Virus record (IMG/VR): IMGVR_UViG_2740892426_000006
DNA length: 34,415 nucleotides
Strand: one strand, 5' to 3'
Source: a virus
Taxonomy: Duplodnaviria > Heunggongvirae > Uroviricota > Caudoviricetes
Shown: positions 3,603-15,073 of the stretch, one piece after another
Layout: every line of letters begins with the position of its first letter
Position numbering within the stretch: position 1 is the first letter of the stretch
The notes under the pieces: model-generated
Databases searched by the model: none
The model's input: only the letters and a program-made list of their open reading frames with translations
What the model was told of the DNA's origin: nothing
Position numbers and translations under genes: made by a program

Positions 3603-3965
3603 TTAACGACCTGCTGCGCGGAGTTTTCCGTCAGGTTCACCGGCAAGAGTCAGTAATTGTCCCTGGTCTTCCTGCAGAATAGTCAGGCGACCACCGCGAT
3701 TGACATACATCGGCGTTTCGGTGGTGTCTTCTTCGGAAATTTTCCCGCGGTTAGTTGGGCGAACATATGAGAGTTTGTGTTTGATTTTCACACGGTTCTC
3801 ATCAAACGGTTCGATTTCCAGATTGAGTGAGACCTTCCCTTTGGTTTTCGTGTTCATCACACCGGAAGCGACCTCACTGAGAACTGCGCCGATTTTGGTT
3901 TCAAATACGCCGCCGTCCAGCTCCCCGATAAATGCCTGCACATCAGTACTGCGTTCGCTAGCCAT
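3603..3965 (-). CDS. hypothetical early-left protein, 120 aa (YfdP-sized)
   Basis: Start set at the ATG (3963-3965) preceded by GAGGAG. The track ORF extends upstream into low-complexity sequence that I treat as non-coding. Confidence 0.5.
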   Translation of the reverse strand: MASERSTDVQAFIGELDGGVFETKIGAVLSEVASGVMNTKTKGKVSLNLEIEPFDENRVKIKHKLSYVRPTNRGKISEEDTTETPMYVNRGGRLTILQEDQGQLLTLAGEPDGKLRAAGR

Positions 3966-4435
3966 TTTGCTGCTCCTCATCATATCGACCCTGCAAGGTC
4001 GGTTGGTTTCTCCACAAAACAGAGAAGAACACCTGCGGTGGCAGCCGCCCGGATGGATTGGGTTATGAGCCCGTCGTCCGGTGATGCTCTTCTCTGTTTT
4101 GCAAAAAAGGACGGTACCAGCCGGAAGCAAGGGTACAAACTGGTACCGCCAGGACTACACACAGCATAAAGTTGTGGTGCCGGGTGCCTCCCGGTGCCTG
4201 GCGAAGGTTGCACACCAGGCGGGTGGGTATCCACAGAAGGTCGACTGTCAGCCTCAACCTTAACCCGCGTGCGCTGAGCCGCATTCACCACAACGCTAAG
4301 GATTCTCTCTGGTTGAAAATACTTAGCTGTTATGTGCCTGCTTTTAGCCACATCAGGCGAGGTGGACCTGGTTATTCCCCAACAACAAGGATTCGGTTAA
4401 TCTGGATATCCCCAACAACAATAAGAGTATTCAAT

Positions 4436-4951
4436 GTGATCGCTGAATTAACGGCAGCAATGACGGCTATTCGTGAAACAGCCCAGATTGCAAAACTAAT
4501 GAACGAGGCAAAAACTCAAGCTGAAGTAAATGCGGCTATTGGTGAGCTGAACTCAAAGCTTGCGTCTATTCAGCGCGAATGCGTGTCTCTCGTTGAACTG
4601 GTGGGCTCTTATCAAGAAATAAATGCTTCTCTCAAAGCTAAAATTGCAGAATTCGAAAACTTTGAGGCTCAGACGGAAGGCTATATCCTTAACCAACTTG
4701 AGTCGGGTACTTTTGTATACTCGAAGGAGGTAATCGTGAACGGTGGCAGCATAACCATGCATCTTTGCCCAAAATGTTTTGGACAAAAGATAGTATCGAT
4801 ACTTCAACCATTCCCGGTTAGCGAAGATGAGCTTTTTCATAAAAGCAGGTGCCTCCACTGTGAAAATAAGTTTCTGATGAATAAAAATCCGGATTACGTA
4901 TCGCCTCCATCCATTGAGGAGTTGTCCAGAAAACTTAACGGCAATCTGTAG
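4436..4951 (+). CDS. coiled-coil protein with C-terminal CxxC-x24-CxxC zinc ribbon, unknown function
   Basis: GTG at 4436 (AAGAG 8 nt upstream) or ATG at 4460. About 80 aa of A/E/K/L-rich predicted coiled coil, then HLCPKCFGQ...RCLHCENKF. Followed by a terminator. The track ORF upstream of 4436 is R-rich low complexity. Confidence 0.5.
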   Translation: MIAELTAAMTAIRETAQIAKLMNEAKTQAEVNAAIGELNSKLASIQRECVSLVELVGSYQEINASLKAKIAEFENFEAQTEGYILNQLESGTFVYSKEVIVNGGSITMHLCPKCFGQKIVSILQPFPVSEDELFHKSRCLHCENKFLMNKNPDYVSPPSIEELSRKLNGNL

Positions 4952-4990
4952 ATTACTACTGTTGTGGATATCCAGATTGTTAAAGAGCTA

Positions 4991-5013
4991 AGCGTCCTGT
5001 AGGGCGCTTTTTT
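4991..5013 (+). terminator. rho-independent terminator after the 4436-4951 ORF
   Basis: Hairpin agcgtcc-tgta-gggcgct followed by a run of six T. Confidence 0.5.
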
Positions 5014-5096
5014 GTTGCTAACGAATCATCCTGGACTTCATATGCCCCAGGCGGCTACTTCGTGGGCGTCCTGCCTGTTCGTTATCTTTGATATAA

Positions 5097-5125
5097 AATC
5101 TAACTTAACTTAGTTATTATGGCAA
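5097..5125 (-). promoter_or_regulatory. candidate leftward promoter (pL-like) with embedded operator-like palindrome
   Basis: On the minus strand: TTGCCA, 17-nt spacer, TAGATT. The spacer contains CTAACTTAACTTAG, which resembles the palindromes in the cI-cro intergenic region. Confidence 0.3.
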
Positions 5126-5178
5126 GAGAAAACACCAAACTTTTCTTAGTTCGGTGCCTTAGTTAGAGAAGAGAGGTC

Positions 5179-5805
5179 TTAGAGTTCGTATTGAACTCCT
5201 TTGACTACACCAATGATAAGGCAATTACCATTGATAGGGATGTTGGGATACCGAGGATTTAATGGCACTAAAAACTTTTGAGGGCCATCGATGACTAATT
5301 TTTTTACTGTAGCTTCGTTTGTTCCATCAAGTCGAGCGATGACTATTTTTCCATGACGAGGTTCTGCATCTGGATCTACAATCACTGTTGCGCCTTCTGG
5401 TATTGTTGGGAGGCCATTAGGGTTAGTCATGGAGTCACCTTTAACCTCTAATGCAAATGAGTTATCACCAATCTTTAATGATGTATCTACCCACTTGTCC
5501 ACTTCACTAAACACTTCTGCTGCCCTGCACTCAGTAAACTGCCCAGCCTGAACCCACGATATTACAGGAACTCTGCGCATGTTTGTGACGAGTTTGCCTT
5601 CAAACTCAGCACCATAAAGAATGTAATCTATTGACGTATTGAAGAACTTCGCTAATTTCGAAAGTGCCTCCCCACCAGGGGTATTGATGTCTTTCTCCCA
5701 GTACCCCACAGCAACGTCGCTTACTCCACAAAATTTACCCAATTCTTTCTGGGACGTTCCGGTAACTCTTCTCAGAGCTTTTATACGCTGACCAACCGTT
5801 TCCAT
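5179..5805 (-). CDS. cI: CI-type prophage repressor (HTH plus LexA-like S24 autopeptidase domain)
   Basis: 208 aa; N-terminal HTH (SQKELGKFCGVSDVAVGYWE); C-terminal S24-like region with GDSM motif and a downstream K; divergent from cro. Confidence 0.85.
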   Translation of the reverse strand: METVGQRIKALRRVTGTSQKELGKFCGVSDVAVGYWEKDINTPGGEALSKLAKFFNTSIDYILYGAEFEGKLVTNMRRVPVISWVQAGQFTECRAAEVFSEVDKWVDTSLKIGDNSFALEVKGDSMTNPNGLPTIPEGATVIVDPDAEPRHGKIVIARLDGTNEATVKKLVIDGPQKFLVPLNPRYPNIPINGNCLIIGVVKGVQYEL

Positions 5806-5825: not shown

Positions 5826-5890
5826 TGCTAAGTAATCTTAGTTTTTATTGACCAAAGATAGATTTGTAATTAGCATCTAATAAAAATTAG
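5826..5890. promoter_or_regulatory. operator/promoter region between cI and cro (oR, pRM, pR)
   Basis: Three palindromes built from TTAG/CTAA half-sites: CTAAGtaatCTTAG (5828-5841), ATTAGcatCTAAT (5869-5881), CTAATaaaaATTAG (5877-5890). Confidence 0.45.
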
Positions 5891-5902: not shown

Positions 5903-6103
5903 ATGACAACTGACGATATCGAAAGCTACTTCGGCAGTATTGAGAAAGTTGCTGCTTTTTTCGGCATAACAACTGAAGCCGTTTATCAGTGGCGAAACCG
6001 TCCGGGCCAGTTAATTCCAAAAGGACGTGCAGCAGAAGCTGCATATAGAACTTGCGGACGGTTGCCATTTAAACCTGAGCTTTATGAAAAATCTAATGGA
6101 TAA
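5903..6103 (+). CDS. cro: Cro-like small HTH regulator
   Basis: 66 aa, GGAGGG Shine-Dalgarno, divergent from cI; the segment FGITTEAVYQWRN resembles a Cro-type HTH. Confidence 0.65.
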   Translation: MTTDDIESYFGSIEKVAAFFGITTEAVYQWRNRPGQLIPKGRAAEAAYRTCGRLPFKPELYEKSNG

Positions 6104-6692
6104 ATCGATTAACAGAAACCACAGAACGATGAGGCTAACCGTGGGTAAGCATCACTGGAAAGTAGAAAAACAGCCTGAGTGGTACGTGAAAGCTGTCAGA
6201 AAAACTATCGCAGCGTTGCCGGGTGGTTACGCTGAAGCAGCTGACTGGCTGGATGTAACAGAAAACGCATTATTTAACCGCCTTCGTGCCGATGGCGATC
6301 AGATTTTCCCGCTGGGATGGGCAATGATTTTGCAACGTGCTGGTGGAACTCACTTCATTGCTGACGCTGTGGCGCAGTCTGCAAATGGCGTCTTTGTGTC
6401 TCTTCCTGACGTCGAGGATGTGGACAACGCCGATATTAACCAGCGCCTGCTGGAAGTCATTGAACAGATTGGCAGTTATTCCAGACAGATTCGTTCGGCA
6501 ATCGAAGACGGTGTGGTGGAACCGCATGAGAAGACAGCAATTAACGACGAGCTGTATCTCTCAATTTCGAAGCTGCAGGAGCATGCAGCACTGGTCTACA
6601 AAATCTTTTGCATTTCAGAAAGTAATGACGCCCGCGAGTGTGCAGCTCCGGGCGCCGTGGCGTGTCGTGACTGTGGAGAAACTAACGCATGA
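6084..6692 (+). CDS. CII-like phage regulatory protein (start uncertain)
   Basis: ORF immediately after and overlapping the cro 3' end. Candidate starts at 6084, 6096, 6129 or GTG 6141. The position is that of lambdoid cII; family assignment is from memory only. Confidence 0.45.
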
Positions 6693-11020: not shown

Positions 11021-11773
11021 ATGAACCTTGAAGCCTTACCAAAATATTACTCCCCAAAATCTCCAAAATTGAGCGATGACGCACCGGCGACAGGCTCAGG
11101 TGGTTTAACGATTACGGATGTGATGGCTGCGCAGGGGATGGTGCAGTCGAAAGCACCGCTTGGGTTTGCCTTATTCCTGGCAAAAGTTGGTGTTCAGGAT
11201 CCTCAGTTTGCGATTGAAGGTCTGCTCAATTACGCGATGGCAATGGATAACCCGACATTGAACAAATTGAGTGAAGAAACCCGGTTACAGATCATCCCTT
11301 ACCTTGTGAGTTTTGCCTTTGCTGATTATTCCAGGTCTGCGGCAAGTAAGGCTCGCTGTGAGCATTGTGCTGGTACTGGATTTCATAGTGTATTGCGCGA
11401 AGTGGTGAAACACTCCAGAAGCGGGGAATCTGTTATCAAGGAAGAGTGGGTGAAGGAATTATGTCAGCATTGCCATGGTAAGGGAGAAGTCAGCACGGCT
11501 TGCAGAGGGTGTAAGGGTAAAGGCATTGTCCTGGATGAAAAAAGAACCCGGCTTCATGGCGCGCCTGTTTATAAGATTTGTGGGCGTTGCAATGGAAACC
11601 GGTTTAGTCGTTTACCGACCACACTGGCACGACGTCATGTCCAGAAGCTGGTACCAGACCTGACTGATTATCAGTGGTACAAAGGATATGCAGACGTCAT
11701 TGATAAACTGGTAACAAAGTGCTGGCAGGAAGAAGCATTCGCTGAAGCACAATTGAGAAAGGTGACGAGATAA
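11021..11773 (+). CDS. Q: late-gene antiterminator Q (QuuQ-type, 250 aa)
   Basis: 250 aa with Cys/His clusters (CEHCAGTG, CQHCHGKG, CRGCKGKG, CGRCNG); followed by a promoter/terminator module. Confidence 0.7.
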   Translation: MNLEALPKYYSPKSPKLSDDAPATGSGGLTITDVMAAQGMVQSKAPLGFALFLAKVGVQDPQFAIEGLLNYAMAMDNPTLNKLSEETRLQIIPYLVSFAFADYSRSAASKARCEHCAGTGFHSVLREVVKHSRSGESVIKEEWVKELCQHCHGKGEVSTACRGCKGKGIVLDEKRTRLHGAPVYKICGRCNGNRFSRLPTTLARRHVQKLVPDLTDYQWYKGYADVIDKLVTKCWQEEAFAEAQLRKVTR

Positions 11774-14326: not shown

Positions 14327-14617
14327 ACAACGAATCCTTCTGATCTGCTTTCGCGGGGCTTTTTTGTATCCGCTCCATGCCCGGCGTATAAGCGGAGGTT
14401 GGTCAGTTTTCTAAAAATTGAAATACCTCACAATTCAGCCAGTTAATGGTTGTTTGTCTGGCGAAGAGTTTGTAAATAAAAAAACGCATGGTGAATCCCC
14501 CTAAGCGGCGGGGCGAATCAGCAGTCAGTTCTGGGATAATCGCGGGTTCGTATGCTGATGCCGGACTCACCGGGAGGCACCCGGCACCATGCATCATGGT
14601 CATCCCCTTGTATGATA

Positions 14618-14642
14618 CCCCTCTCCGGAGGGGTATTTTTTG
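14618..14642 (+). terminator. rho-independent terminator
   Basis: cccctc-tccg-gagggg hairpin followed by tattttttgg. Confidence 0.45.
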
Positions 14643-15073
14643 GATAAAAAAGCCCGCGCTGGGAGGCACGGGCGGCAAGGAATAAAACGTGAAGAAATTT
14701 TCACAGGCGCATAATAATCCGATGTTGCCAGATTTTGCAACTGCATCATCTGGTTATTATGTGAGCTGGAAAATCAGATTCTGTATGGACTGAAGCCATG
14801 CTGTTATTTAGGGCCAAAGAGCTGGCTTTTTCCCGCCTTCTCTCCAGTAACGATTAATGAGAAAAGAATGAAATGCTTTTCCTGGGGAGGAGGGCAGTAG
14901 AAAAAAGAACCCGCCAGCAAAAATATGGGGGATGAACAGCTTTTGCTACTCAGGTTGCTGGCGGGTATGGTTCTTCATGAAATAAGAATGTTACGCGGTA
15001 TTTTTAATGAAAATGATAATTATTGTCAATTGGTTGTGCGTATTTTTTCATACATGACTGGTAAAGGTGATTC

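What the first reader, a model, noticed from the sequence alone, without database searches (positions are those of the whole stretch)
5090..5130. Candidate pL-like promoter with operator palindrome downstream of cI, implying antisense transcription through the zinc-ribbon gene
On the minus strand there is TTGCCA, a 17-nt spacer, then TAGATT. The near-palindrome CTAACTTAACTTAG lies in the spacer and shares the CTAA...TTAG half-site pattern of the three palindromes between cI and cro. If this is the early-left promoter, its transcript would run antisense across the 4436-4951 ORF and through the structured block before reaching the left-operon genes. That would place the accessory gene under convergent or antisense control linked to repressor occupancy.
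Basis: inference. Interest (0 to 1): 0.5.

Follow-up and report, generated by a model that had tools for sequence, protein, structure and literature searches.

The report
Prophage early-left promoter facing defence gene
The site is very probably the repressor-controlled early-left promoter of an E. coli prophage. Its transcript has to run backwards through an anti-phage defence gene inserted just downstream, and a ribosomal-RNA-type anti-termination signal at the entry to that gene suggests how it gets through.

Summary
TTGCCA, 17 nt, TAGATT lies on the minus strand at 5125-5097, and CTAACTTAACTTAG lies at 5100-5113. CTAA-N6-TTAG occurs only three times in 34 kb, all in the immunity region (0.24 expected).

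The hexamers alone are no better than chance. The case rests on comparison with relatives:
- Relatives of this cI, from Enterobacter to Proteus, keep the order cI stop, terminator, TTGAC(C/A), a 17-nt spacer containing the operator, TAGATT, while the flanks diverge.
- Phages of three other immunity types carry their own operator type at the same position.
- Phage LLS has no inserted gene, and there the same promoter sits about 19 nt from the left-operon leader.

Downstream on the same strand lie:
- a covarying leader RNA that is in neither the records examined nor Rfam (5014-5092);
- a perfect rrn-type boxA (4977-4988);
- the antisense of a Rip1-like defence gene (4436-4951);
- an STnc100-like block ending in a terminator;
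- yfdP.

The boxA module recurs at the ends of cassettes that carry three unrelated cargo families in antisense orientation.

My verdict is a real pL/OL: a new immunity type with an unusual downstream architecture. No transcription start or repressor binding has been shown. How the cargo is transcribed, and how the intrinsic terminator is passed, remain unexplained.

The parts
5179..5805 (-). cI-type repressor gene (208 aa; HTH_3 plus S24 peptidase domains)
   Evidence: Pfam hits. The recognition-helix region GVSDVAVGYWEK is conserved in all relatives that use CTAA-N6-TTAG operators and differs in the other immunity types.
5828..5890 (.). OR region with three operators: 5828-5841 CTAAGTAATCTTAG, 5853-5866 CAAAGATAGATTTG (degenerate) and 5877-5890 CTAATAAAAATTAG. 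pR candidate: TTGACC at 5848-5853, 17 nt, TAGCAT at 5871-5876 (+).
   Evidence: Relatives have two or three sites at 24-25 or 49 bp spacing.
5126..5160 (-). Intrinsic terminator of the cI transcript (hairpin followed by UUUUCUCUU), immediately upstream of the pL -35. It contains a one-mismatch operator-like site, CTAAGAAAAGTTTG, at 5149-5136 (candidate OL2).
   Evidence: The fold gives -15.1 kcal/mol, z = -4.1, and 0 of 200 shuffles fold as well. The one-mismatch site is listed. A hairpin plus T-run, and the CTAA-N6-TTTG site, are conserved in relatives.
5097..5125 (-). pL candidate: -35 TTGCCA (5125-5120), 17-nt spacer, -10 TAGATT (5102-5097). The predicted start is about 5089-5091.
   Evidence: Relatives have TTGACC or TTGACA, always a 17-nt spacer, and TAGATT. 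The start position is inferred from the -10, not measured.
5100..5113 (.). OL operator CTAACTTAACTTAG (CTAAGTTAAGTTAG on the minus strand), overlapping the spacer and the first 3 nt of the -10
   Evidence: One of only three CTAA-N6-TTAG sites in the window. It is identical in phage LLS, whose cI region is only 77% identical in DNA, and in 12 or more relatives from other genera.
5014..5092 (-). Conserved structured 5' leader RNA of the pL transcript. P1 pairs 5083-5076 with 5028-5020. A small hairpin lies at 5075-5065. P3 pairs 5051-5047 with 5034-5030. The core GGCAGGACGCCCACGAAGUAGC is invariant.
   Evidence: RNAalifold on 15 sequences predicts 16 pairs, 5 of them with compensatory double changes. 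Covariance model R1 scores 101 bits here and finds no second copy in the window and none in HK022. There is no Rfam match. In about 100 IMG/VR contexts the core follows a TTGAC-type promoter carrying varied palindromes.
4990..5009 (+). Intrinsic terminator of the cargo gene. It appears to work in one direction only: a G.U pair in the cargo sense becomes an A.C mismatch in the pL sense.
   Evidence: The plus-strand fold is -11.5 kcal/mol and is followed by U6; the minus-strand fold is -7.5 kcal/mol with no U tract. The same asymmetry is kept in most cassette homologues.
4977..4988 (-). rrn-type boxA, GCUCUUUAACAA, on the pL transcript at the entry to the antisense cargo
   Evidence: It is the only match in the window even when 2 mismatches are allowed. 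It is the only match to the published consensus GYTCTTTAANA, with 0.06 expected (consensus from PMC5725501). The module is conserved at the ends of cassettes carrying three unrelated antisense cargo families.
4436..4951 (+). Rip1-like anti-phage defence gene (171 aa: coiled coil plus a C-terminal zinc ribbon), oriented against pL
   Evidence: PGAP calls the same ORF. It falls in phrog_1244. phmmer against PDB chain 9oox_L, 'ring interacting pore 1', gives E = 2.7e-7 over aa 14-150 with both CxxC pairs aligned. A homologue 59% identical sits in the same position and orientation in Kosakonia.
4336..4424 (.). Conserved 5' element of the cargo cassette. It holds two direct 21-nt repeats (4367-4388 and 4401-4421); a third copy is inverted at 4953-4978.
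   Evidence: The inverted repeat is 26 nt and 85% complementary. The element is almost invariant between E. coli and Kosakonia although the flanks diverge, and it precedes different first genes in other cassettes. Its function is unknown; no sigma-70 promoter scores above 7 of 12.
4101..4324 (-). STnc100-like structured RNA block ending in an intrinsic terminator (about 4152-4102: an 11-bp stem followed by U6)
   Evidence: The Rfam RF02076 match scores 40.3 bits, E = 1e-6, below the gathering score of 47. Sub-threshold copies lie at the same place in ST64B and e14. It shares only UGGUGAAU...CACCGGGAGGCACCCGGCACCA with the full STnc100 at 14457-14645.
4015..4101 (-). Long covarying hairpin whose apical stem-loop is GGG-CUCAUAA-CCC (4060-4072), between the terminator and the yfdP start
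   Evidence: Inverted repeat. The stem covaries across 35 distinct homologues. A 25-nt indel relative to LLS argues against coding.
3603..3965 (-). yfdP, the first conserved gene of the left operon (followed by yfdQ, yfdR ... xis, int)
   Evidence: Annotations of near-identical phages and of E. coli A39.

Best explanation
Positions 5097-5125 on the minus strand are the early-left promoter (pL) of an SfV/e14-like lambdoid prophage. The palindrome at 5100-5113 is its operator (OL) for the cI-type repressor encoded at 5179-5805.

In the lysogen, the repressor would bind OL, which overlaps the spacer and the -10, and block RNA polymerase. The cI transcript itself would stop at a terminator just upstream of the -35.

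After the repressor is inactivated, transcription would start near 5090 and run leftward through these elements in order:
1. a conserved structured leader RNA (5014-5092);
2. the weak antisense face of the cargo terminator;
3. an rrn-type boxA (4977-4988), which would recruit NusB/NusE and the other Nus factors and protect the roughly 1.1 kb of untranslated RNA from Rho;
4. the antisense of a Rip1-like defence gene (4436-4951);
5. the STnc100-like block;
6. yfdP, yfdQ and on to xis and int.

Transcription through the defence gene from the opposite direction would lower its expression once the prophage commits to lysis.

Shown by sequence comparison: the motif, its specificity, its conservation, the matching of operator type to repressor type, the leader structure, the boxA and the gene order. 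Inferred: the start site, repressor binding, the anti-Rho role of boxA, read-through to yfdP and silencing of the cargo.
For: (1) CTAA-N6-TTAG occurs only three times in 34 kb, all in the immunity region, against 0.24 expected.

(2) In 15 of 21 cI relatives examined, the motif occurs in the cro-cI spacer and again 30-120 bp after the cI stop. In the other six it is missing after cI, and two of those carry extra sites upstream.

(3) The order terminator, TTGAC(C/A), 6 nt, CTAAGTTAAGT, TAGATT is kept with a 17-nt spacer across eight genera, while the flanks are unalignable.

(4) Operator type follows repressor type.
- SfV, SfIV, e14 and cdtI have TGTAYM-N5-GGTACA at OR (twice) and at the same post-cI position inside TTGACA...CATAAT.
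- SfII and ST64B have TTGC-N7-GCAA at both places.
- Photorhabdus and Xenorhabdus have TTAAG-N4-CTTAA at both places.
- None carries another type's operator at its own immunity sites.
- The recognition helices differ accordingly.

(5) Across the wider family, 58 of 87 distinct promoter regions upstream of the leader share a 9-mer with the expected OR region, against 22 of 87 for a control region. 41 of 87 score at least 9 of 12 as promoters, against 10 of 87 shuffles.

(6) Phage LLS has the same promoter and operator but no cargo. The -10 lies about 19 nt from the start of the left block, and it is the only minus-strand promoter-like site between cI and yfdP. The window likewise has none near 4000-4400.

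(7) The leader RNA covaries. boxA is unique in the window and lies on the correct strand.

(8) The boxA module accompanies three unrelated antisense cargo families. 9 of 11 boxA-positive clusters have an antisense longest ORF, against 13 of 33 boxA-negative clusters (Fisher p = 0.03, from a crude ORF-based call).

(9) In E. coli K-12 e14, which has the same architecture and leader, ymfJ (the first gene after the leader) and intE are induced late in the SOS response together with the right-operon gene ymfM (PMC11002266).
Against: There is no experimental start site, footprint or expression measurement for this phage.

The -35 in the window (TTGCCA) is weaker than in relatives, and the hexamers alone are at chance level.

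Only one exact operator lies at pL, whereas lambda has three, so the strength of repression is unknown.

A strong intrinsic terminator (about 4102-4152) lies between pL and yfdP. boxA-modified complexes are not expected to override it. No N-like protein was found, and there is no second copy of the leader in the right operon. How transcription reaches yfdP is therefore unexplained.

The association between boxA and cargo orientation rests on crude ORF calls and on cassette ends that are related to one another (p = 0.03). The antisense-cargo RNA has no strong C-over-G (rut-like) signature.

Six cI relatives lack the downstream site.
Confidence: 0.78

Rival explanations
1. The promoter is real, but its main product is a short leader RNA. 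Transcription would be terminated or processed before or within the cargo, or at the intrinsic terminator of the STnc100-like block. The left-operon genes would then depend on another, unrecognised promoter or on a dedicated antiterminator.
For: The leader is highly conserved, structured and sits at the very 5' end. A strong intrinsic terminator lies at about 4102-4152, before yfdP, and LLS has a further terminator-like hairpin about 80 nt after pL. No N-like gene was found.
Against: A perfect boxA directly after the leader implies that elongation over a long untranslated stretch matters. No other minus-strand promoter-like site lies between cI and yfdP in the window or in LLS. In SfV, e14, mEp460_4F5 and Yersinia relatives the leader is followed within 20-50 nt by a ribosome-binding site and a gene on the same strand. 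In e14, ymfJ and intE are induced together.
Confidence: 0.15
2. The palindrome is an auxiliary repressor site used for OL-OR looping or for control of cI levels. The hexamers would be incidental, and the left operon would be transcribed from a promoter in 4000-4400.
For: The hexamers alone are at chance level. There is only one exact operator here. The window's -35 is weak.
Against: The -35, the 17-nt spacing and the -10 are conserved across eight genera, with better -35 hexamers in relatives. The same promoter-plus-operator layout occurs in three other immunity types and in dozens of IMG/VR contexts. In LLS the site abuts the left block. No promoter-like site lies in 4000-4400 on the minus strand.
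Confidence: 0.05
3. The promoter-like hexamers and the palindrome coincide by chance, with no function.
For: Only the chance-level promoter count.
Against: The operator motif is found only in the immunity region and is identical in distant relatives. Operator type follows repressor type.
Confidence: 0.02

Closest known systems
Phage lambda pL/OL (early-left promoter and operators) with nutL
   Same: It lies just beyond the 3' end of the immunity transcript and points away from cI toward the recombination, xis and int genes. It is a sigma-70-type promoter overlapped by an operator of the same type as OR. The repressor is a LexA-like, self-cleaving protein. A structured leader with a boxA follows the promoter.
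   Different: There is one exact operator (plus a one-mismatch candidate inside the cI terminator) instead of three. No N gene and no recognisable boxB-N pair were found. The boxA is the full rrn consensus rather than lambda's CGCUCUUA, and it follows a hairpin (the rrn order) rather than preceding it. The first feature downstream is not N but an oppositely oriented defence cassette. The operator sequence and the repressor specificity are different.
rrn-type boxA antitermination (Nus factor complex: NusB/E/A/G with SuhB), also used by the suhB leader and by CRISPR arrays
   Same: GCUCUUUAACA is a perfect match to the published consensus GYTCTTTAANA (PMC5725501). It sits at the start of a long untranslated RNA, as in rRNA and in CRISPR arrays (PMC7665894).
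   Different: The context is a phage early operon running antisense through a cargo gene. Nus factor binding and the effect on Rho were not tested here.
HK022 put RNAs (cis-acting antiterminator RNAs downstream of pL and pR, no N protein needed)
   Same: A conserved structured RNA of about 65-80 nt lies immediately after the early-left promoter in phages that lack an N gene at that position.
   Different: A covariance model of the leader finds nothing in HK022, and there is no second copy in the right operon. This is resemblance by position only. Membership is not supported.
Prophage 'moron' and defence slots next to the immunity region (lambda rexAB, sieB); the Rip1 defence protein (PDB 9oox)
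   Same: It is an accessory anti-phage gene beside cI in a slot that varies between otherwise near-identical prophages. The protein resembles Rip1 in sequence.
   Different: rexAB is co-transcribed with cI, whereas here the cargo lies inside the pL transcription unit in the opposite orientation. The characterised Rip1 sits between the terminase genes of a Pseudomonas prophage (PMC13434031).

Membership tests
Lambdoid early-left promoter/operator (pL/OL) | Located beyond the 3' end of the repressor gene and pointing away from it toward the recombination and integration genes | tested here: met
   The cI stop is at 5179 and the promoter at 5125-5097 on the same strand. yfdP, yfdQ and then xis and int lie downstream.
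Lambdoid early-left promoter/operator (pL/OL) | Sigma-70-type -35 and -10 hexamers 16-18 bp apart | tested here: met
   TTGCCA, 17 nt, TAGATT scores 9 of 12. Relatives have TTGACC or TTGACA with the same spacing and the same -10. Taken alone this is at chance level in the window.
Lambdoid early-left promoter/operator (pL/OL) | Operator of the same sequence type as OR, overlapping the promoter | tested here: met
   The three CTAA-N6-TTAG sites in the window are the only ones. Three other immunity types place their own operator type at the same position. Recognition helices vary in step with operator type.
Lambdoid early-left promoter/operator (pL/OL) | Several adjacent operators (OL1-3) that allow cooperative binding | tested here: not met
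   There is one exact site. A one-mismatch site lies 36 bp away inside the cI terminator. Yersinia, Providencia and Proteus relatives have two exact sites.
Lambdoid early-left promoter/operator (pL/OL) | Repressor binding and repression; leftward start site after induction | not testable with these tools
   Only indirect evidence exists: e14 ymfJ and intE are induced late in the SOS response (PMC11002266).
N/nut antitermination (lambda-type) | An N-like arginine-rich protein, with boxA-boxB nut sites in both early operons | tested here: not met
   No N-like ORF lies after pL. boxA occurs only once in the window. The leader model finds no second copy.
rrn-type boxA / Nus factor complex target | RNA matches the consensus GYUCUUUAANA | tested here: met
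   GCTCTTTAACA at 4978-4988 on the minus strand is the only match in the window, with 0.06 expected.
rrn-type boxA / Nus factor complex target | NusB/NusE/SuhB association and protection from Rho | not testable with these tools
   Needs ChIP or reporter assays in nus mutants, or with bicyclomycin.
HK022 put RNA | Sequence and structure similarity to putL or putR; copies in both early operons | tested here: not met
   The covariance model of the leader has no hit in HK022 loci L009 and L010 and only one hit in the window.
Rip1 (ring interacting pore 1) defence proteins | Sequence similarity to the solved Rip1, including the C-terminal zinc-ribbon cysteines | tested here: met
   phmmer gives E = 2.7e-7 over aa 14-150 against residues 28-159 of 9oox_L, with both CxxC pairs aligned. 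There is no hit in PADLOC 2023.
Rip1 (ring interacting pore 1) defence proteins | Pore formation triggered by portal or small-terminase rings; anti-phage activity | not testable with these tools
   This function is known only for the Pseudomonas protein (review PMC13434031).
Rfam STnc100 (RF02076) | Score at or above the family's gathering threshold (47 bits) | tested here: not met
   The left block scores 40.3 bits. The copy at 14457-14645 scores 114.5 bits.

The most novel reading that the evidence does not exclude
The slot between pL and the left operon may be a modular dock for defence genes that tolerates transcription from the opposite direction. Cassettes carrying unrelated defence or accessory genes would be inserted against the direction of pL. 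Each would bring a one-way terminator plus a perfect rrn-type boxA, so that the early-left transcript, which starts with a conserved and undescribed leader RNA, becomes Rho-resistant and can run about 1 kb untranslated through the cassette. The same read-through would switch off a Rip1-like abortive-infection gene when the repressor falls. Otherwise that gene could be triggered by the prophage's own portal or terminase rings. This would be a repressor-coupled safety switch for self-endangering defence genes, and a new use of the Nus/boxA system by phages that have no N protein.
Probability: 0.3. Interest if true: 0.7.

Novelty: new variant of a known kind. Interest (0 to 1): 0.45.

Why it matters
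This fixes the position of the early-left promoter and the operator specificity (CTAA-N6-TTAG) for a prophage type found in hundreds of complete E. coli genomes: 373 of 5,426 carry this exact configuration. The same method gives the equivalent sites for SfV, e14, SfII, ST64B and Photorhabdus-type immunities. None of these sites is annotated in the records examined.

It also shows how a defence gene can sit head-on inside an essential phage operon. A one-way terminator and a ribosomal-type boxA accompany such cassettes, which gives a directly testable model for Nus-dependent, N-independent antitermination in temperate phages and for switching off a prophage's own abortive-infection gene at induction.

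Finally, the conserved 5' leader RNA is absent from Rfam and unannotated in the phage records examined. It marks repressor-controlled early promoters in many enterobacterial phages and could serve as a landmark for annotation.

Tried and rejected
1. The leader is an HK022 put-like RNA. A covariance model built from 15 leaders found nothing in HK022 and no second copy in the window. Rfam found nothing in HK022 either. Membership is rejected; a put-like role is not excluded.

2. The true left promoter lies at 4000-4400. No minus-strand promoter-like site is there. The STnc100-like block shares no promoter with the late STnc100 copy. In LLS, pL abuts the block.

3. The structured block is a gene. 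PGAP marks it as a frameshifted pseudogene. The ORF translations look non-protein-like, and a 25-nt indel relative to LLS breaks any frame. I treat it as non-coding.

4. The cargo cassette inverts between its GGATATCC repeat cores. A synthetic inverted junction matched none of 5,426 complete E. coli genomes.

5. The cargo gene has its own sigma-70 promoter. The best score within 190 nt upstream is 7 of 12. This stays unresolved.

6. The antisense-cargo RNA has a Rho-utilisation signature. The C/G ratio is only 0.8-1.6, which is uninformative.

7. The hairpin loop mimics the tRNA-fMet anticodon arm. The match is exact in E. coli-type phages, but positions 37-38 vary in relatives, so the idea is weakened.

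8. The literature gave no start-site or operator data for e14 (ymfK/ymfJ) or SfV. It gave only the SOS induction of ymfJ and intE.

9. PADLOC and NCBIfam gave no name for the cargo.

Full report
**Context.** The window is an SfV/e14/mEp460-like lambdoid prophage of E. coli. Around the finding lie:
- cI at 5179-5805 on the minus strand (HTH_3 plus S24 peptidase);
- cro at 5903-6103 on the plus strand;
- a cII/YmfL-like gene at 6141-6692;
- a lambda-type Q gene at 11021-11773;
- to the left, yfdP (3603-3965, minus), yfdQ and on to int.

The exact configuration of 4366-5200 is present in 373 of 5,426 complete E. coli genomes.

**The observation.** On the minus strand, TTGCCA (5125-5120), a 17-nt spacer and TAGATT (5102-5097) are present. 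CTAACTTAACTTAG lies at 5100-5113 and overlaps the spacer and the first three bases of the -10. CTAA-N6-TTAG occurs only three times in the 34 kb, at 5100, 5828 and 5877, against 0.24 expected; no shuffle reached three. A third, degenerate cI-cro site (CAAAGATAGATTTG, 5853-5866) lies 25 and 24 bp from its neighbours, and Rahnella relatives have three exact sites with that spacing. The hexamers alone are at chance level: 4 promoter-like sites in 3 kb against 4.3 expected. The case therefore rests on the operator and on comparison with relatives.

**Comparison within the same immunity type.** Phages 689R6 and mEp460_4F5 carry the same site. So does phage LLS, whose cI region is only 77% identical in DNA. 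A scan of reference genomes with the cI protein returned relatives at 63-90% amino-acid identity from Enterobacter, Kosakonia, Kluyvera, Serratia, Rahnella, Yersinia, Providencia and Proteus.
- In 15 of the 21 relatives examined, CTAA-N6-TTAG occurs in the cro-cI spacer and again 30-120 bp after the cI stop.
- In the other six it is missing after cI (L018, L021, L022, L024, L025, L034), where the downstream context is different; L025 and L034 also carry extra sites upstream of the spacer.
- Where the site is present, the layout is constant: cI stop, hairpin with T-run, TTGAC(C/A), 6 nt, CTAAGTTAAGT, TAGATT. The spacer is always 17 nt, while the flanks are unalignable.
- Yersinia proxima, Providencia and Proteus have a second exact operator upstream of the -35.
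- In the window, the cI terminator (5126-5160; -15.1 kcal/mol, z = -4.1) contains a one-mismatch site, CTAAGAAAAGTTTG. Many relatives keep it as CTAA-N6-TTTG.

**Comparison across immunity types.** Each of three other types carries its own operator at OR and at the same post-cI position:
- SfV, SfIV, PhiR49, cdtI and K-12 e14 carry TGTAYM-N5-GGTACA twice at OR and once just after their cI terminator, inside TTGACA...CATAAT.
- SfII and ST64B carry TTGC-N7-GCAA at both places.
- Photorhabdus and Xenorhabdus relatives carry TTAAG-N4-CTTAA at both places.

No type carries another type's operator at its own immunity sites. The recognition-helix region GVSDVAVGYWEK is conserved in every repressor that goes with CTAA-N6-TTAG, from E. 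coli to Proteus, and differs in the other types. This matching of protein to DNA site is the strongest argument available without experiments that the palindrome is the repressor's operator and that the site is a regulated promoter.

**Where the promoter leads.** LLS has no gene between cI and yfdP. Its pL -10 lies about 19 nt from CCACCGCGCCTGATGTGGTTAAAAGCAGGC, which corresponds to window 4370-4338, the start of the 'structured block'. That promoter is the only minus-strand promoter-like site between cI and yfdP in LLS, and the same is true of the window. The window's 4371-5085 is a leader plus an inserted cassette.

**The leader.** Immediately after the predicted start (about 5090) lies a conserved RNA element at 5014-5092.
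- It has a closing stem (5083-5076 with 5028-5020), a small hairpin and a hairpin P3 (5051-5047 with 5034-5030). Both longer stems covary: 16 pairs are predicted and 5 show double compensatory changes.
- The core GGCAGGACGCCCACGAAGUAGC is invariant.
- It has no Rfam match.
- It also occurs, unannotated, in ST64B, ZF40, SPN3UB, mEp237, YeP1-3, phiNP and Klebsiella phages.
- An exact-core scan of IMG/VR gave about 100 distinct contexts in 56 clusters. In nearly all of them the core is preceded by a TTGAC-type -35, varied palindromes in the spacer and a -10. Of 87 distinct promoter regions, 41 score at least 9 of 12, against 10 of 87 shuffles. 58 of 87 share a 9-mer with the expected OR region, against 22 of 87 for a control region.
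- A covariance model of the leader finds one copy in the window and none in HK022, so it is not a put RNA by that test.
- In SfV, e14, mEp460_4F5 and Yersinia relatives, the leader is followed within 20-50 nt by a same-strand gene.
- In e14, that gene (ymfJ) and intE are induced late in the SOS response together with the right-operon gene ymfM (PMC11002266).

**boxA and the cassette.** In the window the leader is instead followed, on the pL strand, by AAAAAAGCGCCCUACAGGACGCUUA-GCUCUUUAACAA.
- The 12-mer is the rrn boxA. It is the only match in the window even with two mismatches allowed. It is also the only match to the published consensus GYTCTTTAANA, with 0.06 expected (PMC5725501).
- The hairpin before it is the reverse of the cargo gene's terminator. 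In the cargo sense it folds at -11.5 kcal/mol and is followed by U6. In the pL sense a G.U pair becomes an A.C mismatch, the fold is -7.5 kcal/mol and no U tract follows.
- The module 'hairpin, boxA, TCTGGATA' recurs at the pL-proximal end of cassettes carrying three unrelated antisense cargo families: the zinc-ribbon family, the 144-aa ECs1072/phrog_5286 family, and a 150-166-aa family with hydrophobic, possibly two-transmembrane segments that has diverged to 30-70% identity.
- With crude ORF-based orientation calls, 9 of 11 boxA-positive clusters have an antisense longest ORF, against 13 of 33 boxA-negative clusters (p = 0.03).
- From established knowledge of Nus-factor and boxA complexes in rRNA, suhB and CRISPR arrays (PMC5725501, PMC7665894), I infer that boxA protects the roughly 1.1 kb of untranslated pL RNA from Rho. 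This is not shown here, and the base composition of the antisense RNA is uninformative.

**The cargo.** ORF 4436-4951 is called by PGAP and falls in phrog_1244. It matches the solved 'ring interacting pore 1' protein, 9oox_L, at E = 2.7e-7 over aa 14-150, with both CxxC pairs aligned. Rip1 senses portal or small-terminase rings and forms pores, causing abortive infection (review PMC13434031). A homologue 59% identical sits in the same position and orientation in Kosakonia. Head-on pL transcription would plausibly reduce its expression after induction. This is an inference.

**What remains unexplained.**
- No sigma-70-like promoter (best score 7 of 12) precedes the cargo. Yet an almost invariant 85-nt 5' element with two direct 21-nt repeats, and a third inverted copy at the 3' end, accompanies all cassettes.
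- Inversion between those repeats was tested and not found in 5,426 genomes.
- The STnc100-like block (4101-4324; 40.3 bits, below the gathering score) ends in a strong intrinsic terminator that lies between pL and yfdP. No N-like protein was found.

**Verdict.** The finding is a genuine lambdoid pL/OL of an uncharacterised immunity specificity. Its single embedded operator, conserved leader RNA and boxA-guarded antisense defence cassette set it apart from the lambda model. The promoter itself is ordinary for a specialist; the downstream architecture is the part worth testing.

Noticed in passing
window 5014-5092 (-): A conserved, covarying RNA leader of about 65-80 nt lies at the 5' end of the early-left transcript. 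It has no Rfam match and is not annotated in any record examined. It is found after repressor-type promoters in about 100 IMG/VR contexts and in ST64B, ZF40, SPN3UB, mEp237, YeP1-3 and phiNP.
   Followed up: yes
window 4336-4424 and 4953-4978: The cargo cassette is bounded by a 26-nt inverted repeat. Its 5' side holds two direct 21-nt repeats, CTGG(T/A)TAT(T)CCCCAACAACAA. The 5' element is almost invariant between E. coli and Kosakonia and precedes unrelated first genes. Its function is unknown, and inversion was not found in 5,426 genomes.
   Followed up: partly
window 4015-4101 (-), apical loop at 4060-4072: A long covarying hairpin lies between the STnc100-like terminator and yfdP. Its apical stem-loop, GGG-CUCAUAA-CCC, is identical to the anticodon arm of E. 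coli initiator tRNA-fMet. In relatives, loop positions 37-38 vary (UA, UC), so mimicry is doubtful. ARAGORN finds no tRNA.
   Followed up: partly
window 14457-14645 (+) and 4101-4324 (-): A full STnc100 RNA (114.5 bits) lies between a DNA methylase gene and the holin gene, about 2.7 kb downstream of the Q gene. A divergent relative precedes the left operon. The two share only UGGUGAAU...CACCGGGAGGCACCCGGCACCA and a terminal terminator. The shared motif may be a common binding site or antitermination signal.
   Followed up: partly
window 4436-4951 (+): The 'zinc-ribbon' ORF is a homologue of the Rip1 (ring interacting pore 1) anti-phage protein, PDB 9oox. It is not recognised by PADLOC 2023, Pfam or NCBIfam.
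   Followed up: partly
window 3981-4291 (-) (L011 2116-2426): RefSeq/PGAP annotates a 'frameshifted hypothetical protein' pseudogene over the structured RNA block. This is probably a mis-annotation of non-coding RNA, as may be e14 ymfH, which overlaps the equivalent block.
   Followed up: partly
L012 (E. coli K-12 e14) 4190-4215, minus strand: K-12 e14 has SfV-type immunity. An unannotated pL (TTGACA...CATAAT) with a TGTATC-N5-GGTACA operator and the same leader lies directly upstream of ymfJ.
   Followed up: partly
L025 2511-2573 and L034 2435-2497: Two cI relatives (Serratia and gammaproteobacterial MAGs) lack the post-cI site. Instead they have an extra pair of CTAA-N6-TTAG sites, 49 bp apart, about 400 bp upstream of the cro-cI spacer. 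This suggests a rearranged or duplicated operator region.
   Followed up: no
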